From assembly GCA_963741945.1 (NCBI GenBank), contig CAVUKA010000001.1, forward strand, positions 320,001 to 384,000: a DNA stretch of 64,000 bases, given 5' to 3'. The notes under the pieces are model-generated. The model was not told the DNA's origin and ran no database searches. It saw only the letters and a program-made list of their open reading frames with translations. Shown piece after piece: positions 19,812-41,006 of the stretch (its first letter is position 1; each line of letters starts with the position of its first letter). The stretch is from an uncultured Gemmatimonadales bacterium (GTDB lineage: Bacteria > Gemmatimonadota > Gemmatimonadetes > Longimicrobiales > RSA9). The position numbers and the translations under genes were made by a program.

Positions 19812-20894
19812 TCAGCGGCCCTTCAGGCCTCCATCGACCCGGTCATCCGCCCCTCCACCCTCCTGCTCGCCACCCGCCGCCGCGTAGGCGTCGATGATGT
19901 CCTTCACCAGTCGGTGCCGCACCACGTCCGCCGCCTCGAGGTAGATGAAGCTGATCCCCTCGATCCCCTTGAGGATCGCCTCCACTTCGAGAAGTCCCGA
20001 GTCGCTGCGCCGCACCAGGTCGATCTGGGTCTTGTCCCCCGTGATCACCGTTCGGCTGTTCAGCCCCAGTCGCGTCAGGAACATCTTCATCTGCGCCGTC
20101 GTGGCGTTCTGCGCCTCGTCGAGGATGACGAACGCATCCGAGAGCGTGCGGCCACGCATGTAGGCCAGCGGCGCGATCTCGATGGTGCGCATCTCGAGGT
20201 AGCGCCGCACCCGGTCGTGCGGGAGCATGTCCTCCAGCGCGTCGTAGAGCGGGCGCAGGAAGGGATCCACCTTCTCCTGCAGGTCACCCGGCAGAAAGCC
20301 GAGGCTCTCACCGGCCTCCACGGCCGGGCGCGCCAGGATGATGCGCTTCACCCGGTTCTTCAGCAGCGCGTCCACGGCCATGGCCACGGCCAGGTACGTC
20401 TTGCCCGTGCCCGCCGGGCCGATGGCGATGACGATGTCGTTCTTCGCGATCGCCTCGAGGTAGCCCTCCTGCCCTTCGCTGCGCGGCTGGATCACCTTTC
20501 GGACGCCCGGAAGCAGGATCCGCAGATCCTCCCGCCGGAGCCCACCATCCCTCTCGCCGGCCGTCAGCGCGGCCGTGCCGGGCAGTTCCAGGCCGGTGCG
20601 GTCCGCGTCGTTGTCGACATCGATCGCCGCGTTCGCCACCAGACGGCGGACGTCATCGACGTTGAAGGGCGACTGGAGCTTGGCCAGGTCGATGAGCTGC
20701 TGGGCCACGGGGATGGCGCGCTCGACGTCGTCGAGCTCGCCGGACAGGATCAGGTAGTCGCCACGCAGGATCACGCGACACCCCGTGAGGCTCGCCAGCT
20801 CCTGGAGGTGCGCGTCGTTGACTCCCGCGAGCAGGAGATAGTCGGCCCCCTCGGAGGGCAGCCTGTGCTGGATCACCGTCGGTTCGTCCGCCAT
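19812..20894 (-). CDS. phoH: PhoH family protein
   Basis: [38 protein letters not shown]. Confidence 0.93.
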
Positions 20895-20967
20895 TCCACT
20901 CCCGTTCATGCGTTGAAAGGTCGGCGCTCCGGGCGGCGAGGGGAAGGGACGGCCGCGGCCGCCCGCT

Positions 20968-29980: not shown

Positions 29981-30520
29981 TCACGAGAGCCGGGCCGGAA
30001 CGTAGGTCAACCGGATCACGTCCTCGCCGATCCGATCACTGGTCATGAGGCGCAGCCGCGGCCGCGGTCCCGCGAAATACGGAGTGCCGTGCCCGAGGAC
30101 GACCGGGTGCAGGTAGATTCGATACTCGTCGATCAGCCCGAGCTCGGTGAGGCTCTGCGCCAACGCCGGGCCGGCAACTTCGATCTCCCCGTCGCGCTCG
30201 GCCTTGAGGTCGCGGATCGCCGCCTCGAGATCATCACCGAGGAGCCTGGCGTTCGGGCCGACCGACTTCAACGAGCGCGATACCACCCATTTCGGCTGGC
30301 GCCGCCACGCCGCGGCGAAGGCGTGTTCGTCTGCATCCCATTCGGGATGATCGTCGTCCCAGTAACGCATGATCTCGTACATCGTCCGACCGTACACACT
30401 GCCCGCCTGCCCCTGAGCCTCCTCGATGAAGTGGCGGAAGAGCGTCGGGCCGGGCGCAAAGGCCGCATGGTCGACGTAGCCGTCCAGGGACTGGTTCATT
30501 CCGAACACGAGCCTGACCAT
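29981..30520 (-). CDS. Dihydrofolate reductase / RibD-C family protein; possibly an eroded terminal cassette
   Basis: SLDGYV, GRTMYE, PKWVVSRSL, GLIDEY, PVVLG.G. Confidence 0.88.
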   Translation of the reverse strand: MVRLVFGMNQSLDGYVDHAAFAPGPTLFRHFIEEAQGQAGSVYGRTMYEIMRYWDDDHPEWDADEHAFAAAWRRQPKWVVSRSLKSVGPNARLLGDDLEAAIRDLKAERDGEIEVAGPALAQSLTELGLIDEYRIYLHPVVLGHGTPYFAGPRPRLRLMTSDRIGEDVIRLTYVPARLS

Positions 30521-30602
30521 GCTACCTGCCCTCCTTGCGCGCAATGAATGGTAGGGCTTCATCACTGACGCGTGCGCCTGGCAATTCCGACACAAGCGCC
30601 TG

Positions 30603-30732
30603 AACCAACGTGCACTTCCCTACAGCATGAGCGCCGCAGACTGCGTCGAAACTGCGATCACCTCACCAGCTTCAACACGGCCGCGGCGGGTTCTCCGAAG
30701 CGACCGAAGGCCGCGAAGGCGCTCACCGTTTG
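30603..30732 (-). repeat. attC-like site 1 (left arm degenerate; core split by IS110, remainder at 31679-31685)
   Basis: CCTCACCAGCTTCAACACGG.CGCGGCGGGTTCTCCG..GC..CCG.AGGCCGCG.AGGCGC..ACCGTTTG is near-identical to site 3. Confidence 0.75.
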
Positions 30733-31678
30733 ATCTTACCAACAAGTCCCCTGGGTTCAGATAATGTCCTCAACTGTCAACCTGGAGGCGCACCATGCTG
30801 CACACGGGGATCGATCTGCATAAGCGCACCTGCGTCCTGGCTACCGTGGACGCGGACGGCGAGGTCGTAGCCGAAGCGGAGCTCCGCACCCGTCGGCCGG
30901 CCATCGCCCGCTACTTTGCACAGCTCCCGGGACCCCACCGGGCCACCGTAGAAGCCACCAGCGGCTGGTACTGGATCCGGGACCTGCTGGTCGCGGAAGG
31001 CGTGACGCTGACCCTCGCGCACGCCAAATTCCTGAAGGCCATCGCCTACGCGAAGGTGAAGACGGATGCCGTCGATGCCCTCACGCTGGCCCAGCTTCTC
31101 CGCGTCGGCATGATCCCGGAGGCGCACATGATCTCCGCTGAATTCCGACCGCTCCGCGACGTGATGCGGACCCGGCTCCGCCTGATCCAGAAAGAGGTCG
31201 GGACCCGCAACAGCATTCACCGGCTCCTTGAGAAGTACAACGTTCGGGGCGTCGCGGACCTGCCGCCCATGGCCCAGCTCCAGGCCGCCTGTCACCGGGA
31301 GCGGAGGGAGCTTCTCCGGGAGCACGTCCGCCGACTCGAGAAGAGCCTCCACCCGCACCTGGTGCCTGACCCCGACGTCCAGCGCCTGCTCGCGATCCCC
31401 GGGATCGGCAAGGTCGGGGCGTTCACGATTCTCCTGGAAGTGGACGGGATCGAGCGGTTCCCGAGCGAGCGACACTTCTTCTCCTACTGCCGCTTGGTAC
31501 CGGGGGCCGCGAACTCCGGTGGCAGGGACCGCCACGTCCGATTCGATACCCACTCCGGCCCGGCCAGACCTGCCGTCGCTCGCGGACTCGAGAAGCGTCG
31601 CACGATCGAAAAGCGAATCAGAATCTCTGATTCCGCACAGGATCATCGTGCTCCTTGACGAAGGACTTGTTAATGGTG
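30733..31678 (+). mobile_element. IS110-family element (IS1111-like sub-terminal IRs), internally deleted, inserted in attC-like site 1
   Basis: Sub-terminal IR AACAAGTCC / GGACTTGTT; TG at both junctions; removing it restores CCGTTTG|TTAAGTG. Confidence 0.8.
30795..31658 (+). pseudogene. IS110 transposase, C-terminally truncated
   Basis: GIDLHK, VEAT, KTDAVDA, IPGIG, SYCRLVP..NSGG; then family-like sequence is lost. Confidence 0.85.
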
Positions 31679-31739
31679 TTAAGTGACGTGGCGCCCAGCC
31701 AGCTCCATGGCGCTGACCGAACGGGCGGTTCTGCTGTTC

Positions 31740-31964
31740 CTATAGCAACGCCACGAACTCGTCCACCGACAGTCCAGCCTGTCGGATCAACGCGCGCAAC
31801 GTTCCCTTCCGCAGCTCTTTGTGGTCCGGAATCGTCAGGCGGCGATGAGGGGGTTCCGCCTGTCTCAGTATGATGTGACTTCCTCGCTGGCGATCGACAA
31901 CGTATCCGATCCTGCCGAACGCCTTGACCGCCTCGCGTCCGGAGACGACTGGCAGTTCGGCCAC
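31740..31964 (-). CDS. hicA: HicA-family toxin (cassette)
   Basis: RQRGSHIIL, TIPDHKEL.KGTL. Confidence 0.92.
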   Translation of the reverse strand: MAELPVVSGREAVKAFGRIGYVVDRQRGSHIILRQAEPPHRRLTIPDHKELRKGTLRALIRQAGLSVDEFVALL

Positions 31965-32171
31965 CTAGACCTCCACGATCTCCTCGTGAATGGAGGGAGG
32001 CACCGGTTCCTGGTGATCTTCGAGGCTCTCCAGATACCCTGCGATCGCCTCTCGGATGTTCTCGAGCGCCTCCTGCCGAGTCTCACCCTGGCTCACACAC
32101 CCGGGGAGCGCCGGCACCTCCGCCACGAAGAACCCGTCCTCGTCCTCCTCGATTAGCACCCGATACTTCAT
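31965..32171 (-). CDS. hicB: HicB-family antitoxin (cassette)
   Basis: VPALPGCVSQGETR.EALENIREAI. Confidence 0.92.
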   Translation of the reverse strand: MKYRVLIEEDEDGFFVAEVPALPGCVSQGETRQEALENIREAIAGYLESLEDHQEPVPPSIHEEIVEV

Positions 32172-32231
32172 CGAAGTCCTCCCGTTGGCAGCCGCCCCAA
32201 TCTAATGCATGAGGCGAACCCACGTGATGGC

Positions 32232-32388
32232 ACTTAACGTTCAAGAGCTGCGACGCCGGCGCGTCCTCACGGGCCTGCGCGGCTAATCTCTTCGATCCTT
32301 CCGGTACCGCTCCCAAGGGCCACACGCTTGCGCCGGTGTTCCCCGGAGCCGCGCGCAGCGCGGCGTAGGCGCAACTTGTTTGTTAACT
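32232..32388 (-). repeat. attC-like site 2 (divergent subtype)
   Basis: ACTTAAC...GCCGGCGC / GCGCCGGTG...CCGGAGCCGCGCGCAGCGCGGCGTAGG...GTTTGTTAACT. Confidence 0.75.
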
Positions 32389-32458
32389 GAAGTGCCGTGC
32401 ACCGATGGTTGATCCATCCATCCTCTCCCAGGCGGGTCAGCAGCTGCGAGGGGATGTC

Positions 32459-33283
32459 TCAGCGTCGGTACAGGCCGCCCACCAACCTGTACCCGAACTG
32501 CAGGGTCGACGGTGCTATTGGCACCGTAGTAGCAAGGGGATGGGTCCCTTCAATCACCCAGGCCGTATCAGGCGCGCATGCCCGTTCGCGGTGCCCGGCG
32601 AAAGCGATGCGTACAACTCCATTGAAGGGAGACGTCTGCGGAGGAACAAGGACTTGGGTCCCGGCAGAGCTTGATCCCCCTGATGTCGGGCCCTGCGGGG
32701 AGCAACTGATTCGCAGAGCGAGTCCCTCGAGGGTAACCGACGCTCGCCGCTCGCCCGACGGTGTCGTCGTGAGTCTTACGTCACCGTAGCTCGCATAGTG
32801 TCCCAGTTCCCTCATGTACGCCACGTAGGCCGAATCCGGAACCCAGAACTCCAGCTCAAGAAACGGGACGCCCAGGTCAAGATCAGTGTCCCCGACCGGG
32901 GCGATCCGGGCGAACCACAATCCCACGGCCCCTCCGTCGGGCCAATGTGGGCTTCTTCCGTTCAGCGCAAACTCACCCGCCTGGAGGATCTCAAGAAACG
33001 AGACGCCCCATTCACGCTGTGTCGGGTGGGCCTCTAGGTAGTCTTCCGCCCAAGACATCCCCGCGGAGGACAGGTCACCGAGAGAGACAAACCGAACACC
33101 GGGAGGGAGACGGTCGGACACGCGTTCCGGGTCAAAAGCACGCCAACTGACGATCTCCTCAGGGTCGCTGACGACCCACCTGGTGCCGGCTCCCTCCGGC
33201 AGCGCAGGGATCTGGCCGGCAACGAGACTGGGCTGGAGCCCAGCGAGACCAAGCAAGGCAAGCTCAATCCATGGGTGTTTCAT
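32459..33283 (-). CDS. Hypothetical secreted protein (cassette)
   Basis: 274 aa, signal-peptide-like N-terminus, fills the space between two att sites. Confidence 0.75.
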   Translation of the reverse strand: MKHPWIELALLGLAGLQPSLVAGQIPALPEGAGTRWVVSDPEEIVSWRAFDPERVSDRLPPGVRFVSLGDLSSAGMSWAEDYLEAHPTQREWGVSFLEILQAGEFALNGRSPHWPDGGAVGLWFARIAPVGDTDLDLGVPFLELEFWVPDSAYVAYMRELGHYASYGDVRLTTTPSGERRASVTLEGLALRISCSPQGPTSGGSSSAGTQVLVPPQTSPFNGVVRIAFAGHRERACAPDTAWVIEGTHPLATTVPIAPSTLQFGYRLVGGLYRR

Positions 33284-33394
33284 CGCTCGGGCCTCTCGGG
33301 GGGCATCAGCGCGGAGTCGGTGTGCAACCTACCAAGAAGTCGCTCCTTCTGATCTGGTCCAAGTGTCCGACTCAGTCGTTCCCGAAGGCATTTC

Positions 33395-33545
33395 AGATAA
33401 CGTCTCCAGGTTGGCGACCCGCCGCGCCGATACCTCTAGCACGCGATCACCTTCGAAACAGCGGCAGCCTCACCAGCTTCAACACGGTCGCGGCGGGTTC
33501 TCCGGAGCGGCCGCAGGCCGCGCAGGCGCCAACCGTTTGTTAACC
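33395..33545 (-). repeat. attC-like site 3 (subtype A)
   Basis: AGATAAC-N7-GGTTGGCG-ACCCGCCGCG...CGCGGCGGGT-[28 nt]-CGCCAACC-N4-GTTAACC. Confidence 0.85.
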
Positions 33546-33574
33546 GCCGTGTTCTGCCCACAGCCTGGCGGAGG

Positions 33575-33871
33575 TCACCTCCGGGCCTGCCAACGCTTCG
33601 GATCGCGGCGGGAATGGAAAACGGAGAGTACCACGATCTCTTCCGCGCTCACTCTGAAGAGAATGGCATATGGGAATCGCCGAACAACGGCCCTCCGGAC
33701 ATCCCGATACAGAATGGGAAATCGGAGAGGATTCCGCTCGATCGCTGAGAAAGCCGCATCGATGACGCGGACGAATTCCGCTCCCAAGCCCAAGGAACGC
33801 TCCGAATACCACGCTGCGGCTTCCTCGAGTTCGGCGTCGGCCGCAGGGCGAACAACGAAGCGGCGGCTCAC
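33575..33871 (-). CDS. RelE/ParE-family toxin (cassette)
   Basis: A..ELEEAAAWY, LG.EF, RRFPY.I.F, VFH.RRDP. Confidence 0.9.
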   Translation of the reverse strand: MSRRFVVRPAADAELEEAAAWYSERSLGLGAEFVRVIDAAFSAIERNPLRFPILYRDVRRAVVRRFPYAILFRVSAEEIVVLSVFHSRRDPKRWQARR

Positions 33872-34098
33872 CCGTACTTCTTGTACAACCGCTCCCGGAC
33901 TTCCTCCCAGGGAATAGCAGAATCCGGGTCCGCTTCATGTTCTGCCAGCCTACGGTCCAGTTCCGCCTTCTGGGCCTCAGTTAATGGATAGGCGTCCGCG
34001 TCCGTAGCGATGCTGTCCCACAGGTCCTCCACCAACTGAATCCGCTCAGCGACCGACAGCTTGAGCAGTTCCTCGATTGGTACACTCGACATCCGCAA
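33868..34098 (-). CDS. Putative addiction-module antitoxin component (cassette)
   Basis: LSVAERIQLVEDLWDSI, ELDRRL, IPWEEV. Confidence 0.9.
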   Translation of the reverse strand: MRMSSVPIEELLKLSVAERIQLVEDLWDSIATDADAYPLTEAQKAELDRRLAEHEADPDSAIPWEEVRERLYKKYG

Positions 34099-34158
34099 GC
34101 TCCTTCCCTGAAGTCCCTTGCTCCTAATCTGCTACAGAAACGCCGAGTGGAACATGGG

Positions 34159-34308
34159 GGTTAACGGACGAAGGCTGCTGATCCGGCCTCCTTCACCTGA
34201 CCAGCTCAGCAACTATCGAAACCATGAACTCCTCACCAGCGGCCGCCCTTCTCCGCCGGATACTCCGGAGCGACCGAAGGGAGCGAAGGCAGCAGCCGGT
34301 TGTTAACT
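34159..34308 (-). repeat. attC-like site 4 (subtype B)
   Basis: GGTTAAC-N7-GGCTGCTG-ATCCGGC...GCCGGAT-[28 nt]-CAGCAGCC-N4-GTTAACT. Confidence 0.85.
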
Positions 34309-35349
34309 GATGTCCCCCAGCAGTGAGGGTGGTACATCCGCTCCAAAGAAATCAGCCACGTCGTAATTCCACACGAAGAACGTCCCTCCCAAGGGGGCCA
34401 CCGGACCAACCTCAATCTCACCGTCGATACGGAAAACCTTTACGCGGGTCCCTAGCTTGCCGGTCTGTCGCAGATGTAGCTGGCCTCTCCTGGCGCGCTC
34501 CTCGGTGGTGAAGAAGCGGCAGGCTCCATCGAGATGAATCACAGCATCTCGGGCTTTTGAGAAGATGGCATGGAAGTAGCGACTGGGCACGCACCATTCA
34601 TGGTCCGGCTCGGGCACCTCTTCAACGGCCAAATGCACTTCTCCCCGCCGCGGACTCCAGTGGTAATCGGTGAATTCGCCGTGACTCAAGGATGAAGGAT
34701 GCCACCGGCCGAAAGCTTCTTTGTCGATCGTCCTCACATCATCCCACTTCAACGGCGGGCCATACCACAACATGCGGTAGGACATTCGCGGAAACGTGTC
34801 CGAGGGCCCATGCAGGAGAGGGTCAAGTCGAACTCGAGCAACCCGCCCAACCTCCTCTGCACCAAGCGCCCGTGTAAGCCAGTATGAAGAATTGACCCCT
34901 GGTGTGGGTGGAAGGACCGTGAATGCGTGCCCCCCTCGCACCAGCACACCGTCTTCAATATCGAACGCTGCAAGCGGCACGAGATTGTCCTCGCACAACT
35001 CCAAATCCTCAACGGCAGGCATACCGTACGGAGGCGGACGCCCGTCCCCGTTCTCTGCAGTCAACAAACCTGCGCGCTTGTCGCAGATCCGCCGGTTCAA
35101 CTCACGGATGACGACCCACTCTCGCGCAAACCACTCTCGCTTCTCATGAGGTAGATCGCCGTGGAGGCCCTCAAAGTGGCGATCCGCCTGCGCCTCTCTG
35201 ATTTCCTCCTCAGAAACACTGCCGAAAGCCAGCCGCATCTCGGAATTCAGCGGGTGGTCCCTGTCGACCTCGATCCGGCCTACTTCGAACAGCGGTCCTA
35301 TCGGGCTGGCGCCGAAATACTCCTCCAAAGCGGTCGGAATCGAAACCAT
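34303..35349 (-). CDS. Hypothetical protein, ~348 aa (cassette)
   Basis: Long ORF filling the cassette; TAA stop lies inside the att core; start taken at MVSIPT. Confidence 0.8.
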   Translation of the reverse strand: MVSIPTALEEYFGASPIGPLFEVGRIEVDRDHPLNSEMRLAFGSVSEEEIREAQADRHFEGLHGDLPHEKREWFAREWVVIRELNRRICDKRAGLLTAENGDGRPPPYGMPAVEDLELCEDNLVPLAAFDIEDGVLVRGGHAFTVLPPTPGVNSSYWLTRALGAEEVGRVARVRLDPLLHGPSDTFPRMSYRMLWYGPPLKWDDVRTIDKEAFGRWHPSSLSHGEFTDYHWSPRRGEVHLAVEEVPEPDHEWCVPSRYFHAIFSKARDAVIHLDGACRFFTTEERARRGQLHLRQTGKLGTRVKVFRIDGEIEVGPVAPLGGTFFVWNYDVADFFGADVPPSLLGDIS

Positions 35350-35379
35350 TTCAGCGGTCACGACGGTCTTGGGGATATC

Positions 35380-35530
35380 AGTTAACGTTTCCAGGTTGGC
35401 GACCCGCCGCGCCACACCCTCCAGCGCGCAGCCGCCTTCGACATCTCACGAACCTCACCAGCGTCAACCCGGCCGCGGCGGGTTCTCCGGAGCTCGCGAA
35501 GCGAGCGCAGGCGCCAACCGTCTGTTATCT
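35380..35530 (-). repeat. attC-like site 5 (subtype A)
   Basis: Same arms as site 3; branch hairpin GCTCGC-GAA-GCGAGC. Confidence 0.85.
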
Positions 35531-35572
35531 GACGTGAGCCGCACCTGTCCAGCCGCGAACGCGGCAGAAGAA

Positions 35573-35842
35573 TCAGGCCGCCTTGACGGGCGCCAGCTCT
35601 TCTGGGTCGGGCCTGCCCAATCCAAGCTTGTCGAACACGGCCATGATCTCATCGACCGACACGTAGCCTGGCGAGACAATCTCGATGCCGAGGGGCGCCC
35701 CGTCCTCTGCGTAGTCAATCAGGAGTTCGGGGGTGACTTCCTCGGTCCGCGCGCTCTTCTGCCCTGGCTTACGATCCAGGTAAACGTAGGCCGCGAACGG
35801 CTTTCCCTTCCGGTAGGTAACCTCTAGCGAGAGTCCGTTCAT
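35573..35842 (-). CDS. DUF2283-like protein (putative antitoxin; cassette)
   Basis: AAYVYL, LIDY..DG.PLGIEI. Confidence 0.75.
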   Translation of the reverse strand: MNGLSLEVTYRKGKPFAAYVYLDRKPGQKSARTEEVTPELLIDYAEDGAPLGIEIVSPGYVSVDEIMAVFDKLGLGRPDPEELAPVKAA

Positions 35843-36099
35843 ACGTCATCGCTCCTGGGGTATGCCGTCACCACCATGACGATCCGATTCTCATCGTCTG
35901 GCTCCACAACCACGATCCAAGACGTTCCTGCATGGCGCGTACGAACGAGCCAGCGGCCCGGCCGCTTCGAAGGGAGAAGCGCCATCCCGCCTTCCAGCAT
36001 GGCGCGGATTTCGACTTCCGAAAAGCCTCTCTCCTCCATCCTCAATTCGACGTGGGCCGTGAACGCCAGCGGCCAATCCCACCAGTCCGGACGTTCCAT
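35839..36099 (-). CDS. DUF4258-like protein (putative toxin; cassette)
   Basis: FTAHVELRMEERG, VVTAY; overlaps the DUF2283-like partner. Confidence 0.75.
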   Translation of the reverse strand: MERPDWWDWPLAFTAHVELRMEERGFSEVEIRAMLEGGMALLPSKRPGRWLVRTRHAGTSWIVVVEPDDENRIVMVVTAYPRSDDV

Positions 36100-36154
36100 C
36101 CTCTTCCTCCGCAGAGGGCCTCTCGCAAGCTAATGCTGCCGGGCGGCTCATGTC

Positions 36155-36306
36155 AGATAACGTTTCCAGGTTGGCGACCCGCCGCGCCACGACCTTTAGC
36201 GCGCGACCGCCTTCGAAACGACGATTCCCTCACCCAACTTCCAGACGGTCGCGGCGGGTTCTCCGGAGCGGCCGCAGGCCGCGGAGGCGCCAACCGTTTG
36301 TTATGC
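36155..36306 (-). repeat. attC-like site 6 (subtype A)
   Basis: Same arms and branch as site 3. Confidence 0.85.
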
Positions 36307-36425
36307 GCAGTGGCTTTTCCGCCTCCGTAGGACGGCAAATTCCCGCAGTTAGCCGCCTCCTGAGGTTGTGGAGTTGCCCCGAATCGGTGGACACCTCATG
36401 AGTGAGGGAGAGAGGAGGGTCCACG

Positions 36426-36734
36426 ATGGGACGCAATTCGTATCCGCCGGAGTTCCGGCGGCAGATGATCGAGCTGGTTCGGGCGGGACGCACGCCGGAG
36501 GAGCTGTCCCGGGAGTTTGAGCCATCCGCGGGCGCCATTCGCAACTGGGTCCGGCAGGCGGATCTGGACGAGGGCCGGCGGGAAGACGGGCTCACGACGG
36601 AGGAGCGCCAGGAGCTGCGCCGACTCCGCCGGGAAGTGAAGCAGCTGAAGACCGAGCGGGAGATTCTGGCAAAAGCCGCCGCCTGGTTCGCGGGGGAGAC
36701 GAAGCACGACCCGAAGAAGCGTTCGGGTTCGTGA
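36426..36734 (+). CDS. IS3 OrfA (HTH)
   Basis: YPPEFR, IRNWVRQ, E...LRRE..QL..EREIL.KAAAWFA. Confidence 0.92.
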   Translation: MGRNSYPPEFRRQMIELVRAGRTPEELSREFEPSAGAIRNWVRQADLDEGRREDGLTTEERQELRRLRREVKQLKTEREILAKAAAWFAGETKHDPKKRSGS

Positions 36735-37582
36735 AGGCGAATCAGGCGGAGTACCCGGTGACCGTGATGTGTGAGGTGCTGGGTGTCTCCCGAAGTGGGT
36801 ACTACGCATGGCTCGAGCGACCACCGTCGAAGCGAGCCATCGCGAACGAGGAGCTGACGGAGCGGATCCGGACGATCCACAAGAACAGCCGAGAGACGTA
36901 CGGCTCGCCCCGGATCCTGGCGGAGCTGAGAGACGAGGGGGAGCGGGTGGGCAAGAACCGGGTCGCTCGCCTCATGAGCGCGGCCGGCATCGAAGGCGTG
37001 AGCCGGAGGCGCCGCCGCGGCACCACGAAGAAGGACCGGGATGCTCGACCGGCGCCGGACCTGGTGGAGCGGGATTTCGCGGCTCCTACGGGGCCGGATC
37101 AACTGTGGGTGGCCGACATCACCTACATCCCCACGTGGGCGGGCTTCCTCTATCTCGCGGTCGTGGTGGACGCCTGGAGCCGCCGCGTGGTGGGCTGGGC
37201 CATGGCGAACCACCTCCGCACCGAGCTCGTGCTGGATGCCCTCAACATGGCGCTCTGGCAGCGTAAGCCGGAGGCTGTGGTCCATCACTCGGACCAGGGC
37301 ACGCAGTACACGTCCATTGCGTTCGGCCTGCGGTGCAAGGAAGCGGGAGTCCGGCCGTCCATGGGCTCCCGAGGAGATTGCTACGACAACGCAATGTGTG
37401 AGAGCTTCTTTGCCACCCTTGAGTGCGAGCTGCTGGACCGGCGGCGCTTTCGCACCCAGGCCGAGGCGAAGATGGCCGTCTTCGACTTCATCGAAGGCTT
37501 CTACAATCCGTGTCGCCGCCACTCGTCGCTGGGCCAGATGAGCCCGGTCAATTTCGAGAAAGAGCAAGCAACGGCGGCGTGA
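36731..37582 (+). CDS. IS3 OrfB DDE transposase
   Basis: VSRSGYY, YGSPRI, WVADITY, HHSDQGTQY, DNAMCESFF. Confidence 0.95.
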   Translation: MKANQAEYPVTVMCEVLGVSRSGYYAWLERPPSKRAIANEELTERIRTIHKNSRETYGSPRILAELRDEGERVGKNRVARLMSAAGIEGVSRRRRRGTTKKDRDARPAPDLVERDFAAPTGPDQLWVADITYIPTWAGFLYLAVVVDAWSRRVVGWAMANHLRTELVLDALNMALWQRKPEAVVHHSDQGTQYTSIAFGLRCKEAGVRPSMGSRGDCYDNAMCESFFATLECELLDRRRFRTQAEAKMAVFDFIEGFYNPCRRHSSLGQMSPVNFEKEQATAA

Positions 37583-37624
37583 AAACCTCAATGTTCACCT
37601 GTCCACTGAACCGGGGGAACTCCA

Positions 37625-37906
37625 GTCGTGCGGATTCCGGTTCGTTAACAGGATGGCAGGGAGGAGTTCCTCGGCATCTTCACCGTTGATCTGATGCCAT
37701 GAGAGGACCTCGTCCTCGAAATGCGCCCCAACAACTCCTCTGAGGATGACGGCTCCGGACCGGGATGCGGCATCAGCCATCCGGTCGAAATTCTGATAGA
37801 GGACGTCGAGGACAGGTTCCTTCCAGCCGTAATCCAGGAGGTACATGTAGCAGCGGCGCTCAACTCCCTCCGGGAGCTCCGCAAGCGAATGGATCATCAA
37901 ACCCAT
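37625..37906 (-). pseudogene. Cassette hypothetical protein truncated by IS3
   Basis: ORF MGLMIHSL...YLLDYGW...LPAILLTNRNPHD runs into the IS3 right end. Confidence 0.7.
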
Positions 37907-37960
37907 TGAGCCCTCACAGCTTCTTTACCTCGAGGCGACAAGAGCGCGTGTGCATGTGGC

Positions 37961-38114
37961 GTATAACGGATAAAGGCTCCTGATCCGGCCTCCAAAACCT
38001 CGACCGGCTCAGCAACTTTCGAAACTACTTGCATCTCACCACCGGCCAGGCGTACGCGGCCGGATACTCCTGCAGCGAGCGTCAGCGAGCGAAGGCAGGA
38101 GCCGGTTGTTAAAC
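37961..38114 (-). repeat. attC-like site 7 (subtype B)
   Basis: GTATAAC-N7-GGCTCCTG-ATCCGGC...GCCGGAT-[30 nt]-CAGGAGCC-N4-GTTAAAC. Confidence 0.85.
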
Positions 38115-38153
38115 GGCGTTGGCCGCCCGTCCGAAGGCGTTCCCTTCCGCCCA

Positions 38154-38666
38154 TCAGAAGCGTCTGGAAATGCCAACGGCGAACCTCGCTACGGTACCTG
38201 CGAAGGGATCGACCGCCCACACGCGTAGCTCCCCCAGGATTCCCCAGGCTTGCGATACCTGCAAACGGAGACCGCCTGCGCCCGACAACGTCCAGGTCCA
38301 ATCCTGTCCATCCGCAAAAGCCACCCGCGCACCACCAATGCCCCCGCCTACGTACGGACCAAAACGCCCCTCAAACGGCGTGAACTGCAACTGGACCTCT
38401 GGCATCAGATACCAGCGGTCCCGGGAAAACTGACTTCGATAATCGAAATAGGTCAGACCCGGTTCGATCGCGATCCACCGAATCGGATTGATCCGTATCC
38501 GGGCCGAGTAGACTTGGGTCCACCCAACGCCACTGAGGTCGTAGTTGGCCGGCCCGCCCGCCAGTGACACCTCGGTTCGCGGATACGCTTGCGCGGTGGT
38601 GACGGAGGGAAGCGCCAGCAACATGGCAAACGCCACCGTCATGACCTTCGTCGATACCCTTGCCAT
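38154..38666 (-). CDS. Outer-membrane beta-barrel protein (first cassette)
   Basis: GGAGGT RBS, signal peptide (AQA), PYVGGGIG, C-terminal Phe. Confidence 0.8.
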   Translation of the reverse strand: MARVSTKVMTVAFAMLLALPSVTTAQAYPRTEVSLAGGPANYDLSGVGWTQVYSARIRINPIRWIAIEPGLTYFDYRSQFSRDRWYLMPEVQLQFTPFEGRFGPYVGGGIGGARVAFADGQDWTWTLSGAGGLRLQVSQAWGILGELRVWAVDPFAGTVARFAVGISRRF

Positions 38667-38694
38667 CGAGACCTCCCTATCAAAGGCCAATGCC

Positions 38695-38725
38695 GTTTAA
38701 CGTTTGCGTTCCCGAACTCGGTTCG
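38695..38725 (-). other. Putative attI-like site at the head of the array
   Basis: Minus strand CGGGAAC-GCAAAC-G|TTAAAC at the first cassette boundary, with no attC-type arms beyond it. Confidence 0.45.
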
Positions 38726-39208
38726 CGTTCGCACGCCCTTTGCCTCGGCCGCGGCATCCTTCTCCGAATGCGGCTCGGGTAAGCTGCGATTCTCGCCAAT
38801 TTCCCGTACGCCATTCGCGAATCAGCCGTGCGGCGTCGATGGAGCGAACCGGGGTTCGGAAAAAAGCTTCTGGCTGCGAGAGCCAGGGCCTGGCGGCCAC
38901 GGCGCGAGGCCGCGGCGGCCTGGCGGGGCGCGGCCGGTGTCGCGTGGCCGGGCCCGGGACGCGAACGGCGGGTCGAACGGGGGTTCGGGAGGCTGCGAGC
39001 CGTCGGGTCCGAAGGCCAAGATGCCCCGGAGTCCGGGAGCCGGCAAGGAACGCGTGCCGGCGCGGGCGGTCAGTTGCGGGTGTGGATGGCCATGTCGACG
39101 GTCGTGGCGTGGGTCGGGGCGTCATTCGGGGCGAGGCGGATCCAGGGGCGAAATCCCCCCCCAGCCGGCGTGAGGGGATCCGGCCCGCGGCCCCCTTCCT
39201 TCCCGGCT

Positions 39209-39388
39209 TCAATCCGCCGACTTGTCCCTTCCCCGCCGGCTCCGGGCCACCCGCATCGTCGCCCAGACCAGCATCAGCACCAGCCACGGCAACGCGAGCC
39301 ACCAGTGTCCCGAAAGGCTGTCCCGCCAGTCGGCTAGCGGAGGCAGCTGGAAGAGGACGCCCACGAGCGCTCCCATCACAGCCGCCAT
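39209..39388 (-). CDS. Small hypothetical membrane protein (59 aa)
   Basis: Manual translation MAAVMGALVGVLFQ...WWLALPWLVLMLVWATMR; true start may lie upstream. Confidence 0.45.
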   Translation of the reverse strand: MAAVMGALVGVLFQLPPLADWRDSLSGHWWLALPWLVLMLVWATMRVARSRRGRDKSAD

Positions 39389-39463
39389 GACCAGGACCTC
39401 CCAGAGGGAGGGCGGGCGCCTCGGGCCCGGGTCCGGCCGACGACAACGGTGGCGCGACGGTCG

Positions 39464-40033
39464 CTACCCTCCGCCTTCCCCCCGGATCCGCTGCCAGAGC
39501 GAGGGCCTGGGCGCCGGCGGCGCCGGGGGCCAGTCGTCGCCGAGCACCACGGAAGCGTCGAGCACGAGCGTGCTGTCCACGGCCGTGGCGACGGAGTCGA
39601 TGCCCAGGGCTGCGGCCACGGCGCGGGCGCGGACGCCATCCCCCACGCGGTCCAGGACCACGCTGGCGTCGTGGTCGAAGCGGCCCGCGTTTCCGAAGAA
39701 GACCACGTCGAAGCCATCGGCCCGCAGGAGGCGGGTGGCATCGAGGGCGAGGCCGCCCCGGCCGGAGCCGTTGAGCACTTCCACGCGGACGTGGCCGAGC
39801 GCGGGATCGATGGGCTGGACGGCGGGGAGCGGCGCCGGGGGATCCGCGACGTGGCTGGCGGCTGCGCCCGGCGCGACATCGTCGTCCTCCCCATCGATGC
39901 CGGCGATGGCGGAGACGATGAAGGCCAGCACCAGCGCGGCGACCACGGCCAGGCCAATGCTGATGCCGCCGGAAGCGCGGGCAGCGCGGCCGCCGCCCGG
40001 CCCGTGTTTCCCGCCCCGCCTACGGCCGGCCAT
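39464..40033 (-). CDS. LytR C-terminal domain protein
   Basis: One TM segment then VEVLNGSGRGGLA, GFDV...GNA, VVLG.D. Confidence 0.85.
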   Translation of the reverse strand: MAGRRRGGKHGPGGGRAARASGGISIGLAVVAALVLAFIVSAIAGIDGEDDDVAPGAAASHVADPPAPLPAVQPIDPALGHVRVEVLNGSGRGGLALDATRLLRADGFDVVFFGNAGRFDHDASVVLDRVGDGVRARAVAAALGIDSVATAVDSTLVLDASVVLGDDWPPAPPAPRPSLWQRIRGEGGG

Positions 40034-40601
40034 CGAGCATTGCGTTCCAGAACGCCAGGGTCTGGGGCATGAGGGGTCGGCCTTTCATCAGGGAGCGCCC
40101 GATGCGGTGCGCGGCCACCTCGCGCAGGACGGCGTCCATGTCCGCGGGCACGCGTTCCCGCCATTCCGCGAGCTGTTCCGTCTCGTACTCGCGACCGGGC
40201 TCGGTGTAGTCGGCCAGGTAGAGCGCCTTGCCGAGCGGGCCGAAGTTCTCGTGGCCGAGCGTGTGCCAGGTGATGGCGAGCAGCAGCTCCTGGTCCTCGA
40301 CGCCGTCCCGCCTCAGCCGTTCGGCGGCGGCCGGCCCGTGGAGCAGCTTTCCGGGGGCGTCCTTGAACTCCAGCGGGACCAGCGCCCGGATCTGCTCGGG
40401 ATCGGCGTCATGGAGGGAGTCGTGGAGCAGCCCGGCGGCGCGCCAGCGGGCGACGTCGTCCTCGTCGAGATCCCGGGACCTCGCCCACTCCTCCAGCAGG
40501 TCCGCCACGCGGCCCACGTGCGCGCGCCGCTTCTCCTTCTTCACGCGGGCCCAGTCGGGGAGAACCCCGTCGGCCGCGCGCGCCAGTGCGGGGTGCAGCA
40601 C
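40020..40601 (-). CDS. HD-domain hydrolase (YqeK-like)
   Basis: RRAH, GLLHD, LLHGP, AITWHT.G, LYLADY.EPGR. Confidence 0.85.
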   Translation of the reverse strand: MLHPALARAADGVLPDWARVKKEKRRAHVGRVADLLEEWARSRDLDEDDVARWRAAGLLHDSLHDADPEQIRALVPLEFKDAPGKLLHGPAAAERLRRDGVEDQELLLAITWHTLGHENFGPLGKALYLADYTEPGREYETEQLAEWRERVPADMDAVLREVAAHRIGRSLMKGRPLMPQTLAFWNAMLDGRP

Positions 40602-40607
40602 GGTGAT

Positions 40608-41006
40608 CTACGTCGGCTCGATGCGGAGGGTGCTCCCCGCCCGCTCGCCGGAGTCCGTCTCCCGGATTCGATTGTTCGGGTCCACGAACACGATGCGCGG
40701 GCGGAAGCCATCGAGCTCGGCCTCGTCGAGCTCGGCGTACGACATGATGATGACCTTGTCGCCCGGCTGGACGAGGCGCGCGGCGGCGCCGTTCAGGACC
40801 ACGTCGCCGGAGCCCTCCGCCCCGCGGATCACGTACGTCTCGAAGCGGGCGCCGTTGTCGATGTCCACCACGTGCACCTTCTCGTACTCCAGGACGTCCG
40901 CGGCCGCCATGAGCATGGGGTCGAGCGTGATGGAGCCCTCGTAGGCGAGGTCCGCGTCCGTCACGGTGGCCCGGTGGATCTTGGATTTGCACATGCTTCG
41001 CCGCAT
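40608..41006 (-). CDS. panD: Aspartate 1-decarboxylase
   Basis: [30 protein letters not shown]. Confidence 0.97.

What the first reader, a model, noticed from the sequence alone, without database searches (positions are those of the whole stretch)
30603..38701. Integrase-less, non-canonical integron-like cassette array inside a housekeeping region
Seen: seven ~150-157 bp imperfect palindromes (30603, 32232, 33395, 34159, 35380, 36155, 37961). Each starts with ..AAC and ends with GTT.., and each separates 1-2 minus-strand ORFs with little spacer. One ORF stops inside the core (34303), and GC is visibly lower than in the flanks. No tyrosine-recombinase ORF is present anywhere in the 64 kb. Known: this layout is that of integron cassettes, and integrase-less clusters are called CALINs. 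Inference: most sites look intact and fall into 3 subtypes, so the array may be served in trans by a distant or divergent recombinase.
Basis: partly seen in the sequence, partly recalled or inferred. Interest (0 to 1): 0.85.

Follow-up and report, generated by a model that had tools for sequence, protein, structure and literature searches.

The report
Satellite cassette array, HARP-fused integrase
This stretch is a real array of seven mobile gene cassettes without its own recombinase, and it belongs to an integron-like system whose recombinase, half a megabase away, lacks the protein segment thought essential for integrons and carries a branched-DNA-binding (HARP) domain instead.

Summary
Window 30603-38725 holds seven ~150-nt structured repeats on the minus strand, each closing a cassette of 1-2 minus-strand ORFs, in a low-GC island with no tyrosine recombinase in the 64 kb.

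The repeats are attC-like. They have a TAAC/GTTA outer pair, an unpaired 4-vs-7-nt spacer, an 8-bp inner stem and a variable branched interior. Covariation is strong: 16 of 26 pairs are compensatory over 57 distinct copies.

They are not scattered. All 14 copies in the 4.09-Mb genome lie in this array or in a second array 498 kb away. The second array starts directly behind a 359-aa tyrosine recombinase, P0001.

P0001 lacks the IntI-specific insertion and has an N-terminal HARP domain. Its orthologs head the main array in 5 of 5 well-assembled relatives, and none of those five has an intact canonical IntI.

One toxin-antitoxin cassette recurs in six arrays of four genomes. Its edges fall in the GTTA core in the five complete copies.

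The same-genus relative G008 lacks the array at this locus.

Best reading: a CALIN-type satellite array, with its own attI-like head, served in trans by P0001.

Earlier notes of this scan report similar arrays with Xer-type integrases on other DNA (CPR, Bacteroidota, archaea, phages). I found no published description.

The parts
38693..38725 (-). attI-like head of the array: a short inverted repeat (CGAAC..GTTCG), the 15-mer GAGTTCGGGAACGCA, then AAC-GTTAAAC. The GTT is at 38701-38699.
   Evidence: 21/22-nt match to the site just downstream of P0001. The G008 attI-like site is alike. The exact 15-mer occurs only at these two places in the genome.
38154..38690 (-). Cassette 1 ORF, 178 aa, outer-membrane beta-barrel-like.
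   Evidence: PF13505, E 1.9e-6, 28.6 bits, just under the 28.7 cut-off. GC 0.61.
37961..38114 (-). Long attC-like site 1 (subtype B).
   Evidence: R1 131.7 bits; fold.
37595..37906 (-). Cassette 2 ORF, 103 aa, no family.
   Evidence: No hit in Pfam, NCBIfam or PADLOC.
36402..37582 (+). IS3-family insertion (OrfA 36402-36734, OrfB 36731-37582) between the cassette 2 ORF and its site. The IS ends were not mapped.
   Evidence: PF01527, PF00665; NF033516 352.6 bits.
36155..36306 (-). Long attC-like site 2 (subtype A).
   Evidence: R1 157.7 bits.
35573..36099 (-). Cassette 3: DUF4258 (35839-36099) plus DUF2283 (35573-35842), a likely toxin-antitoxin-type pair.
   Evidence: Pfam. That it is a TA pair is inference from the arrangement.
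35380..35530 (-). Long attC-like site 3 (subtype A).
   Evidence: R1 158.2 bits.
34303..35415 (-). Cassette 4 ORF, up to 370 aa, no family. Its stop codon lies inside the R'' core.
34159..34308 (-). Long attC-like site 4 (subtype B).
   Evidence: R1 138 bits.
33540..34098 (-). Cassette 5: antitoxin (Unstab_antitox, 33868-34098) plus a 132-aa partner (33540-33938). The whole cassette 33398-34166 recurs in five other arrays.
   Evidence: PF09720. 99.74% identity over 769 nt to L009:7242-8010. Six copies in four genomes with conserved edges.
33395..33545 (-). Long attC-like site 5 (subtype A).
   Evidence: R1 159.2 bits.
32459..33283 (-). Cassette 6 ORF, 274 aa, no family.
   Evidence: A roughly 95%-alike copy lies on a groundwater metagenome contig (record 16).
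32232..32388 (-). Long attC-like site 6 (divergent subtype C).
   Evidence: R1 83.4 bits.
31740..32171 (-). Cassette 7: HicB-like antitoxin (31965-32171) plus HicA toxin (31740-31964).
   Evidence: PF15919, PF07927. An 88% nt match lies in the main array of G008.
30733..31678 (+). Truncated IS110-family element inserted inside the R'' core (G|TTAA) of the last site.
   Evidence: PF01548, PF02371. NF033542 151.2 bits, profile 3-273 of 343. A longer relative lies in array 2. The same IS end stands at the same core position of another site copy in metagenome run X3 (table 7, place 33539).
30603..30732 (-). Long attC-like site 7: degenerate, with the R'' end displaced to 31679-31683 by the IS.
   Evidence: R1 68.8 bits (aligned as 30583-30736); sequence.
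29981..30595 (-). RibD_C-family gene directly behind the last site, with island-like composition and no site of its own: the distal end of the island.
   Evidence: PF01872. GC 0.65, GC3 0.82. 83-85% nt identity to genes a few kb beyond the main arrays of G007 and G046.

Best explanation
Window 29981-38725 is a satellite gene-cassette array (a CALIN in integron terms). It belongs to a lineage-specific integron-like system of this Gemmatimonadota family.

Each cassette is 1-2 promoterless minus-strand genes followed by a ~150-nt site. As a single strand the site folds into:
- an outer R pair (TAAC/GTTA);
- an unpaired 4-vs-7-nt spacer;
- an 8-bp L stem;
- a three-way branch: a conserved side hairpin on the R''-L'' arm plus a long distal stem with a variable tip.

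Cassettes are cut out and inserted by site-specific recombination within the GTTA of the 3' core.

The enzyme is most likely not a canonical integron integrase. It is P0001 (C1:856671-857750, 498 kb away), a tyrosine recombinase with all catalytic residues, no IntI-specific (I2) insertion, and an N-terminal HARP domain. P0001 sits co-oriented at the head of the only other array of this site type. It would act on the window array in trans, docking new cassettes at the array's own attI-like head.

Shown: the anatomy, the fold covariation, the cassette sharing with exact edges, the recombinase-array linkage across genera, the missing insertion, and the HARP homology.

Inferred: that P0001 catalyses the reaction, that it does so on folded single strands, that the HARP domain reads the branched site in place of I2 and extrahelical bases, and that the window array is still active.
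For: Sites and structure
- There are 7 sites in the window.
- Folds.
- 11 of 22 pairs are compensatory among 11 copies.
- Over 57 distinct copies from 6 genomes, 97.5% of 1460 cells pair and 16 of 26 pairs show double changes. 0 of 500 shuffles reach any of the five measures. Slid controls pair at 23-49%.
- Variants of 95-118 nt keep the outer boxes.

Distribution
- All 14 of 14 genomic copies lie in the two arrays.
- 22 of 73 family genomes have copies, always clustered. The count includes one unpublished genome, G056; without G000 and G056 it is 20 of 71.

Mobility
- Cassette 33398-34166 is 99.74% identical to L009:7242-8010.
- It occurs in 6 arrays of 4 genomes with different neighbours.
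- All six copies begin at C|GTTAACC. The five complete copies end at ACGTTA|. In the sixth (G008 main array) about 2 kb is inserted between the ORFs and the site.

Locus variability
- The same-genus genome G008 has the flanks 4.4 kb apart, against 11.4 kb here, and has no site there.

Recombinase
- P0001 lies about 200 nt upstream of the first cassette of array 2, on the same strand.
- Its orthologs (51-89% identity) lie directly upstream of the largest array in 5 of 5 relatives from 5 genera.
- 0 of 5 of those genomes has TIGR02249 over the cut-off. They include the single-contig genome G032 with its 21-kb array.
- P0001 scores 208.5 bits against the TIGR02249 cut-off of 265, with profile positions 180-234 unmatched.
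- 10 of 10 family members lack the 31+10-aa insertion present in both canonical IntIs of this genome, while R, K, H-x-x-R, H and Y are conserved.
- Box I to Box II spacing is 91-92 residues, against 133-134 in 8 IntIs.
- The P0001 family forms a clade separate from IntI: 98/93 for 13 rows, against 100/100 for the IntI clade.
- The closest solved structure is VchIntIA, 2a3v.

HARP domain
- The profile of the N-terminal 88 aa finds 3769 proteins at E<=1e-3.
- Of the 10 I scanned with Pfam, 3 are SNF2 helicases with HARP over Pfam's cut-off (26.1-36.2 bits). 5 are tyrosine recombinases with 3-4 matched stretches of the domain, one of them with HARP at 27.6 bits. One further 374-aa protein has HARP at the cut-off (25.0 bits), and one has no family.
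- Foldseek's top hit for the domain model is SMARCAL1 HARP, 4o66 (E 0.056, prob 0.91).
- VIA's top hits are the N-terminal domains of UvsW (Z 6.7) and XPB (Z 5.3).

attI-like head.

Separate systems
- The canonical IntIs sit beside short (~74-126 nt) attCs of another type.
- They share no cassette with the long-type arrays.

Another phylum: in a Firmicutes MAG the contig with a P0001 relative ends in an ATAAC-type element, and that element recurs in an ORF-element array on another contig.
Against: - No experiment or read-level evidence shows recombination. Only assembled contigs with small shares were available.
- The window array has two IS insertions and a degenerate last site, so it may be decaying.
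- The genome does encode two canonical IntIs. Such enzymes are known for loose attC specificity, so trans action by them is not excluded.
- The HARP-reads-the-branch idea rests on homology and on what HARP domains do in helicases (recalled), not on any test.
- Structural matches of the N-terminal domain are weak to middling (Foldseek E 0.056; Z 6.7 or less).
- P0001's own Pfam HARP score is below the cut-off (16.1 against 25 bits).
- The covariation alignment A6 was fitted to the model's structure, which inflates pairing.
- No promoter-like site was found at the array head.
- Cury et al. 2016 (PMC4889954, section 18, read) concluded that recombinases without the IntI-specific region near attC sites are not integron integrases.
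- How an attI-like site came to stand here without the recombinase is unexplained.
Confidence: 0.7

Rival explanations
1. The array is an ordinary CALIN served in trans by one of the genome's two canonical integron integrases (C1:1.40 Mb and contig C6). P0001 is an unrelated Xer-like enzyme that merely lies beside the other array.
For: Two TIGR02249 matches score over the cut-off in this genome (328 and 361 bits). Canonical IntIs are known to accept structurally diverse attC sites (Bouvier 2009, PMC2727003, passages read). The long sites keep the AAC/GTT triplets and an unpaired spacer.
Against: - The canonical IntIs sit beside a different, short attC type and share no cassette with the long-type arrays.
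- 5 of 5 relatives with long-site arrays have a P0001 ortholog at the array head, and 0 of 5 has an intact canonical IntI. G008 has a frameshifted copy and G007 a fragment.
- The attI-like motif of the window array matches the site next to P0001, not the junctions next to the canonical IntIs.
Confidence: 0.1
2. The window array is an inert relic. It would be a piece of a once complete element that was separated from its recombinase by rearrangement and no longer exchanges cassettes.
For: - There are IS110 and IS3 insertions, a degenerate terminal site, no recombinase within 64 kb and no promoter-like signal at the head.
- IS110 copies in both arrays could have mediated a rearrangement.
- Cury 2016 and Ghaly 2021 (PMC8618304, passage read) list rearrangement as one origin of CALINs.
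Against: - 6 of 7 sites are intact, at 83-159 bits.
- One cassette differs by only 2 of 769 nt from its copy in array 2 (99.74%) although the neighbours differ, which points to recent exchange.
- The array starts with an attI-like site, not with a broken attC, which a simple split of one array would not give.
Confidence: 0.15
3. The repeats are REP/MITE-type palindromic elements or transcription terminators that accumulated between genes, not recombination sites.
For: They are imperfect palindromes located between convergently packed genes.
Against: - No scattered copies: 14 of 14 lie in two arrays, all in one orientation.
- In 22 of 73 family genomes the copies are always clustered.
- Gene-plus-repeat units move as blocks with edges inside the core.
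- Stop codons sit in the core.
- A dedicated recombinase is linked to the arrays.
Confidence: 0.02

Closest known systems
Sedentary chromosomal integrons and CALINs (IntI, attI, attC; IntegronFinder definitions, Cury et al. 2016, PMC4889954)
   Same: - Arrays of mostly promoterless, same-strand genes, each followed by a folded imperfect palindrome with AAC...GTT core triplets, an unpaired spacer and a variable tip.
- The crossover lies in the GTT core.
- There is a docking site next to the recombinase gene.
- Toxin-antitoxin and unknown-function cassettes are frequent.
- Satellite arrays occur without a recombinase.
- Site sequences are homogeneous within a lineage.
- IS110/IS1111-type elements insert into the sites.
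   Different: - The linked recombinase lacks the IntI-specific (I2) insertion that defines IntI and is reported as necessary for activity.
- It has an N-terminal HARP domain instead and forms its own clade.
- The sites are 150-157 nt. This is longer than the 57-141 nt usually quoted, a range I recall and did not find in the texts I read.
- The sites fold as a three-way branch with a conserved side hairpin rather than single extrahelical bases.
- The strict RYYYAAC/GTTRRRY consensus (recalled) is met by 1 of 12 sites at each end.
'Inverted' integrons (integrase gene co-oriented with the cassettes, e.g. Treponema; Cury 2016, section 18)
   Same: [quoted passage not shown] The canonical integrons of this same genome are arranged in the same way.
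   Different: Those integrases carry the IntI-specific domain; P0001 does not.
Xer recombinases (XerC/XerD, archaeal XerA) and the elements that exploit dif-type sites
   Same: The catalytic domain has no I2 insertion. Sequence scores to XerA (NF040815, 199.7 bits) are nearly as high as to IntI.
   Different: - Xer sites are short double-stranded sites at one chromosomal locus (recalled).
- Here ~150-nt hairpin sites form multi-cassette arrays.
- P0001 scores below the cut-offs of the XerA, XerC and XerD models.
- It lies apart from the Xer group in the tree, though that split is only weakly supported at 68/75.
- The genome has a separate Xer-type gene (L007).
HARP-domain annealing helicases (SMARCAL1 type; bacterial HARP-SNF2 proteins)
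   Same: The N-terminal domain of P0001 is homologous to their HARP modules.
   Different: Here the module is fused to a tyrosine recombinase, not to an SNF2 motor. I found no paper on such fusions.
IS1111/IS110 elements that target attC sites (ISKpn4, ISPst6; Siddiquee et al. 2024, PMC11187229, passages read)
   Same: An IS110-family element sits at a fixed position in the core of these sites. This is seen in the window and, independently, on a metagenome contig at another site copy.
   Different: The target is the long, non-canonical site type. The window copy is truncated. The guide RNA and the IS ends were not analysed.
Earlier notes of this scan: integron-like arrays with Xer-type integrases in CPR, Bacteroidota, Chlorobium, DPANN archaea and phages
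   Same: The same general arrangement: a recombinase without the IntI insertion next to attC-like cassette arrays.
   Different: - Those are other lineages, and the notes are unchecked.
- New here are the HARP fusion, the long branched sites, the coexistence with canonical integrons in one genome, and a satellite array with its own attI-like head.
- My quick look at two CPR loci (L015, L016) found no obvious repeats.

Membership tests
Integron (IntI + attI + attC) | The recombinase is a tyrosine recombinase carrying the IntI-specific additional domain near patch III. | tested here: not met
   - P0001 has PF00589 uninterrupted (residues 185-345).
- TIGR02249 scores 208.5 against the 265 cut-off, with profile positions 180-234 unmatched.
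- The 31+10-aa insertion is absent in 10 of 10 family members and present in both canonical IntIs.
- Box spacing is 92 residues against 133-134.
- IntegronFinder's intI_Cterm profile itself could not be run.
Integron (IntI + attI + attC) | Sites have inverted core triplets AAC...GTT at their ends (R'' and R' boxes). | tested here: met
   12 of 12 full copies have TAAC...GTTA. The strict 7-nt consensus (recalled) fits only 1 of 12 sites at each end.
Integron (IntI + attI + attC) | The folded single strand has an R stem, an unpaired central spacer, an L stem and a variable terminal structure. | tested here: met
   Folds. Covariation. 95-216-nt variants keep the outer boxes.
Integron (IntI + attI + attC) | Two or three single extrahelical bases lie on the R''-L'' arm (Bouvier 2009). 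| tested here: not met
   The 8-bp L stem pairs without bulges. The asymmetry is a 4-vs-7-nt spacer and a conserved side hairpin on the R''-L'' arm.
Integron (IntI + attI + attC) | Cassettes move as gene-plus-site units with the crossover in the GTT of the 3' core. | tested here: met
   Comparative only. One cassette occurs in 6 arrays of 4 genomes with different neighbours. All six copies begin at C|GTTAACC, and the five complete copies end at ACGTTA|. No circles or experiments.
Integron (IntI + attI + attC) | An attI docking site lies next to the recombinase gene, and a cassette promoter is present. | tested here: inconclusive
   A conserved motif ending in GTTA lies about 200 nt downstream of P0001 and of its G008 ortholog, and at the head of the window array. 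No promoter-like site was found.
Integron (IntI + attI + attC) | Sites are recognised by IntegronFinder's attC covariance model. | not testable with these tools
   The model is not available here. Rfam has no match at gathering score in the window.
CALIN (cluster of attC sites lacking an integron integrase) | Two or more attC sites with no integron integrase nearby. | tested here: met
   There are 7 sites, no tyrosine recombinase in the 64-kb window, and no pseudogene at the head. This holds provided the long sites are accepted as attC.
REP / MITE-type dispersed palindromes | Copies are scattered singly through the genome, irrespective of gene boundaries. | tested here: not met
   14 of 14 copies lie in two arrays, in one orientation, each directly after a gene.
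HARP domain (PF07443) | Match to the family profile at or above Pfam's gathering score. | tested here: inconclusive
   - P0001 scores 16.1 bits, P0064 17.5 and P0009 17.4, against the 25 cut-off.
- The profile of these N-termini retrieves proteins with HARP over the cut-off: P0130 27.6, P0177 27.6, P0211 26.1, P0187 36.2.
- Foldseek's top hit is 4o66 HARP.
- Homology is well supported; the curated threshold is not met by P0001 itself.
Xer recombinases (XerC, XerD, XerA) | Match over the curated cut-off of an equivalog model. | tested here: not met
   XerA scores 199.7 against 220, XerC 180 against 335, and XerD 169 against 330. P0001 lies outside the Xer group in the tree, a weakly supported split.
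IS110 family (attC-targeting IS1111/IS110 type) | DEDD transposase, and insertion at one fixed position of the target site. | tested here: met
   NF033542 scores 151.2 bits against the 140 cut-off. The insertion is at G|TTAA of the core in the window, and at the same place of another site copy in run X3. Subterminal repeats and guide RNA were not examined.

The most novel reading that the evidence does not exclude
The P0001 family is a second, independent solution to recombining folded single-stranded cassette sites. In place of the I2 helix reading extrahelical bases, a HARP domain (a branched-DNA reader borrowed from annealing helicases) would recognise a three-way-junction attC.

This would give a cassette system that runs orthogonally to canonical integrons in the same cell. 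It may represent, or resemble, the pre-I2 ancestor of integrons. Relatives with one to four HARP copies would then be a large, unrecognised class of structure-specific recombinases spread over many phyla.
Probability: 0.35. Interest if true: 0.9.

Novelty: new variant of a known kind. Interest (0 to 1): 0.78.

Why it matters
Integron biology rests on the view that the IntI-specific I2 segment is what lets a tyrosine recombinase work on folded single-stranded attC sites. Sources for that view:
- Messier and Roy 2001, cited in Cury 2016;
- Escudero 2020, PMC7790495, abstract read;
- Ghaly 2022 preprint, passages read.

Detection tools therefore discard recombinases without that segment, and arrays like this one are filed as orphan CALINs.

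Here a recombinase without I2 is linked to long, actively shuffled arrays across at least five genera. It sits in a genome that also holds canonical integrons with their own site type, which serves as a built-in control.

If P0001 is the enzyme:
- many 'orphan' cassette arrays have an overlooked integrase;
- the cassette gene pool of soils and sediments is larger than integron surveys report;
- the HARP fusion offers a testable model of how proteins read branched DNA sites, and a possible new orthogonal recombination tool.

Tried and rejected
- Rfam at gathering score on the whole window gave 0 matches.
- R1 found no long-type site in 80 loci of distant P0001 relatives. The site sequence is lineage-specific, and the contigs of the closest relatives end right after the gene.
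- There is no integrase pseudogene at the array head: tblastn of P0001 against 38001-41000 gave only E above 2. The weak hit at 20730-20963 falls in a frame that reads like a PhoH-type ATPase.
- Read-level test for circles or excision: only 6 runs with 5-9% of the words, all kept as assembled contigs. The joints listed have short sides (37 nt or less), were laid at 90% likeness and link similar repeats. I do not count them as excision evidence, and I draw no habitat claim from them.
- The promoter scan at the head found 0 sites. One terminator-like site is within the chance expectation.
- PADLOC, NCBIfam and Pfam gave nothing for the four unknown cassette proteins.
- The repeat scan of two CPR loci (L015, L016), meant to test the scan's earlier notes, found no obvious array. 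This is inconclusive, since divergent sites escape that tool.
- The RibD_C homologs of G007 and G046 are not directly preceded by a site. So the reading 'RibD_C is a cassette' is unproven.
- Synteny beyond the genus could not be assessed: in G007, G010, G011 and G046 the left and right flanks lie on different contigs or far apart.
- Supplementary figures S1 and S5 of Cury 2016 show the few non-IntI recombinases found near attC sites. I could not see them, and they may bear on whether any P0001-like protein was met before.
- The attC length range of 57-141 nt and the 7-nt box consensus are recalled. I did not find them in the texts I searched.

Full report
**1. What is there**

The window is G000:C1:320001-384000. 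The genome has about 70% GC, 4.09 Mb and 8 contigs.

Between 30 and 39 kb the GC falls to 0.585-0.654, against 0.67-0.75 elsewhere. In that island repeat finder, nhmmer and a covariance model all find seven copies of a ~150-nt repeat. Exact ends are 37961-38114, 36155-36306, 35380-35530, 34159-34308, 33395-33545, 32232-32388 and a degenerate 30603-30732.

Each repeat follows one or two minus-strand ORFs:

| Cassette | Content |
|---|---|
| 1 | OMP-like, 178 aa |
| 2 | 103-aa unknown |
| 3 | DUF4258 + DUF2283 |
| 4 | 370-aa unknown |
| 5 | Unstab_antitox + 132-aa partner |
| 6 | 274-aa unknown |
| 7 | HicB + HicA |

Two stop codons lie inside the GTTAAC core. Two insertion sequences sit on the plus strand:
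- An IS3 lies between the ORF of cassette 2 and its site.
- A truncated IS110-family element is inserted inside the core of the last site.

The flanks are ordinary genes. On one side are a RibD_C gene and a beta-lactamase-fold gene. On the other are LytR_C, an HD-domain gene, PanD and PanC. The window holds no tyrosine recombinase.

**2. The repeats are structured recombination-type sites, not dispersed palindromes**

As single-stranded DNA each copy folds with these parts:
- an outer pair TAAC/GTTA;
- an unpaired spacer (AAAC against TGGAAAC);
- an 8-bp stem (typically GGTTGGCG/CGCCAACC);
- a branch, made of a conserved side hairpin on the 5' (R''-L'') arm and a long distal stem with a variable tip.

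Covariation supports the fold:
- Among 11 copies, 11 of 22 predicted pairs keep pairing through changes on both sides.
- Over 58 copies (57 distinct) from six genomes, 97.5% of 1460 cells pair.
- 16 of 26 pairs show double changes.
- 0 of 500 shuffles reach any of the five measures.
- Slid controls pair at 23-49%.
- That alignment was fitted to the model, which favours pairing. The size of the effect and the compensatory pairs still stand.

Shorter variants of 95-118 nt in a relative keep the outer boxes and lose the middle. That is the behaviour described for the variable terminal structure of attC sites (Bouvier 2009, PMC2727003, passages read).

The model finds 14 copies in the whole genome. 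All are in this array or in a second array at C1:846356-855744, and none is solitary. In 73 genomes of the family, 22 have copies, always in clusters, and mostly in the well-assembled genomes. One of the 22, G056, is unpublished; nothing else here rests on it.

**3. Cassettes move, with the crossover in the core**

The cassette at 33398-34166 (antitoxin, partner gene and site) is 99.74% identical over 769 nt to L009:7242-8010 in the second array. Copies also lie in two arrays of the same-genus genome G008 and in the main arrays of G007 and G046.
- In all six copies the shared segment begins at C|GTTAACC.
- In the five complete copies it ends at ACGTTA|.
- The neighbours differ each time. In the window the upstream site is even of another subtype.
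- In the sixth copy (G008 main array) about 2 kb is inserted between the ORFs and the site.

That is the footprint expected of integron-type recombination at G|TT. The HicAB cassette also recurs in G008's main array at 88%.

At the syntenic locus of G008 the flanks are 4.4 kb apart instead of 11.4 kb. There is only a 36%-identical RibD_C paralog and no site.

**4. The linked recombinase**

The second array begins about 200 nt downstream of a 359-aa tyrosine recombinase, P0001 (L009:13671-14750, minus = C1:856671-857750). It lies on the same strand, 498 kb from the window array.

In five well-assembled relatives from five genera, the best P0001 ortholog (51-89% identity) lies directly upstream of the largest array, on the same strand, in 5 of 5.

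None of those five has an intact canonical integron integrase:
- 0 of 5 score over the TIGR02249 cut-off.
- G008 has a frameshifted copy and G007 a fragment.
- The single-contig genome G032, with a 21-kb array, has only the P0001 ortholog.

P0001 is not an IntI by definition:
- It scores 208.5 bits against a cut-off of 265, in two stretches that skip profile positions 180-234.
- Its PF00589 domain is uninterrupted.
- In an alignment, all 10 family members lack the 31+10-residue insertion present in the two canonical IntIs of this same genome. The catalytic R, K, H-x-x-R, H and Y are conserved.
- The Box I to Box II spacing is 91-92 residues, against 133-134 in eight IntIs and 89-99 in Xer proteins.

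In a maximum-likelihood tree of 43 proteins the IntIs form one clade (100/100) and the core P0001 family another (98/93, 13 rows). Both lie on the same side of a weakly supported split (68/75) from bacterial XerC/D and archaeal Xer proteins. Three rows were left out: L006, L008 and L040. The root is midpoint only, and composition is heterogeneous.

The closest solved structure is the Vibrio integron integrase 2a3v.

The family is large. 120 clusters are listed at 42-100% identity, most of them at 94% query coverage or more. They come from Gemmatimonadota, Dehalococcoidia, Latescibacteria, Firmicutes and others. They are mostly on short contigs and are annotated only as generic recombinases.

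**5. The N-terminal domain is a HARP domain**

Residues 1-75 of P0001 form a separate alpha/beta domain (pLDDT above 90) with two invariant tryptophans.

Pfam's HARP profile matches below its threshold at the same place in 3 of 5 family members scanned (E 0.003-0.008).

A profile of nine such N-termini, searched against 1.84 billion proteins, finds 3769 proteins at E<=0.001 and 458 at E<=1e-10. The top hits hold 2-4 tandem copies. Of 10 hits that I scanned with Pfam:
- three are SNF2 helicases with HARP above the curated cut-off (26.1, 27.6 and 36.2 bits);
- five are tyrosine recombinases with 3-4 matched stretches of the domain, one with HARP at 27.6 bits;
- one has HARP at 25.0 bits;
- one has no family.

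Foldseek's top hit for the domain model is the SMARCAL1 HARP substrate-recognition domain (E 0.056, probability 0.91). The XPB N-terminal domain follows. The second aligner ranks the N-terminal domains of T4 UvsW (Z 6.7) and XPB (Z 5.3) first, with HARP at Z 3.7. These scores are middling.

That HARP, XPB-N and UvsW-N serve helicases acting on forked or branched DNA is my recollection.

**6. How it most likely works**

Shown:
- cassette anatomy;
- a conserved, covarying branched fold;
- block transfer with edges in GTTA;
- a recombinase-array partnership across genera;
- absence of I2;
- presence of HARP.

Inferred:
- P0001 excises cassettes by site-against-site recombination.
- It inserts them at an attI-type site, on folded single strands as integron integrases do.
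- The HARP domain recognises the three-way branch. The side hairpin sits on the same arm where canonical sites carry their extrahelical bases, so it would take over the role of I2.

The window array would be served in trans. It begins with an attI-like site:
- 21 of 22 nt plus the GTTA match the sequence just downstream of P0001. G008's site is alike.
- The exact 15-mer occurs only at these two places in the genome.
- Upstream of it, 38726-39463 shows no coding signal and no recombinase remnant.

How this second docking site arose is open.

**7. Two cassette systems in one genome**

G000 also has two nearly identical canonical IntI genes, at C1:1.40 Mb and on C6, both near contig ends.
- Short (about 74-126 nt) attC sites of another type lie downstream of their 3' ends.
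- The long-type arrays share no cassette with these loci, only IS21 copies.
- No long site lies there.

This argues for two separate systems. It is the main evidence against the rival that the canonical IntIs serve the window array.

**8. Beyond this family**

In a Firmicutes MAG, the contig with a 44%-identical P0001 relative ends after one gene in a GC-rich element beginning ATAAC. Further copies form an ORF-element array on another contig, with ATAAC...GTTAT ends. Bacteroidota relatives show a GTTAT-type motif about 100 nt behind the gene.

Earlier notes of this scan describe integron-like arrays with Xer-type integrases in CPR bacteria, Bacteroidota, Chlorobium, DPANN archaea and phages. 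These notes are unchecked, and my quick look at two CPR loci was inconclusive.

**9. What is in print**

Cury et al. 2016 (section 18, read) found only 50 PF00589 proteins without the IntI-specific region near attC sites. Four were intermediate between IntI and Xer, with fewer than three sites each. The authors concluded that such proteins are not IntI.

Ghaly et al. 2022 (preprint, passages read) and Escudero et al. 2020 (abstract read) treat the I2 region as defining and as the innovation behind single-strand recombination.

Gemmatimonadota are listed among phyla with integrons (Ghaly et al. 2021, PMC8618304, passage read).

Searches for attC-like arrays with other recombinases, for Xer-like plus attC, and for HARP plus recombinase found nothing describing this system. 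The library lacks most subscription journals, and supplements were closed.

**10. Verdict**

The array itself is a satellite of a larger system. That system is a new variant of the integron kind: the same logic, but a recombinase that fails the defining IntI feature and carries a HARP domain, and unusually long branched sites.

Confidence that this is a genuine cassette array of that system is about 0.9. Confidence that P0001 is the enzyme and can act here in trans is about 0.7. Confidence that the HARP domain reads the branch is about 0.35.

Noticed in passing
G000:C1:1392695-1412694 (L010) and G000:C6:1-16000 (L011): Two canonical integron integrase genes, nearly identical to each other, lie near contig ends. 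Each has short attC sites downstream of its 3' end ('inverted' layout). L010 and L011 share 98.6-99.4% identical blocks, so they may be two copies or one locus assembled twice.
   Followed up: partly
L010:17771-18039 and L011:10888-11024: Long runs of 9-nt tandem repeats (units GGGCGTCGC and CCCGTGGAG) lie a few kb from the canonical integrase genes. Whether they are coding or not was not examined.
   Followed up: no
window 29981-30595; G007:C6:704259-704786; G046:C15:307552-308081; G010:C2:1176227-1176753: The RibD_C-family gene at the distal end of the array is 83-85% nucleotide-identical across genera, while housekeeping flanks are 69-73%. In G007 and G046 it lies a few kb beyond the last repeat of the main array.
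   Followed up: partly
window 38726-39463: A ~740-nt GC-rich stretch between the LytR_C gene and the array head shows no frame with the high third-position GC of native genes and no family match.
   Followed up: partly
window 30733-31678; L009:5229-6311; metagenome run X3 at window place 33539: The same IS110-family element is inserted at G|TTAA of the site core in the window. It is present as a longer copy in array 2, and it stands at the same core position of a different site copy on a metagenome contig. This looks like an IS that targets these sites.
   Followed up: partly
L093:11667-13751 (G008:C2): In G008's main array the shared toxin-antitoxin cassette is separated from its own site by about 2 kb of inserted DNA. 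The cassette sequence overlaps by 5 nt at the two edges.
   Followed up: no
G008:C2:1322-2267: A canonical integron integrase gene is split over two frames (profile 1-170 and 169-315). It is either a pseudogene or an assembly error.
   Followed up: no
L009:8701-10883: An IS21-family element (IstA/IstB) is inserted in the second array. A further copy of IstB lies in L010.
   Followed up: partly
L106:8910-9302, 10830-11283 and from about 12740 (Firmicutes MAG G073, contig C71): The attC-like elements of this array contain internal runs of 8-14-nt tandem repeats, making them 180-400 nt long.
   Followed up: no
proteins P0123, P0128, P0130, P0144, P0148: Tyrosine recombinases of 570-790 aa carry three or four tandem HARP-like modules in front of the SAM-like and catalytic domains. 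Their genomic context is unknown.
   Followed up: no
L011:1-300 and 3236-3535: A 300-nt exact duplicate sits at the start of contig C6, next to the canonical integrase gene.
   Followed up: no
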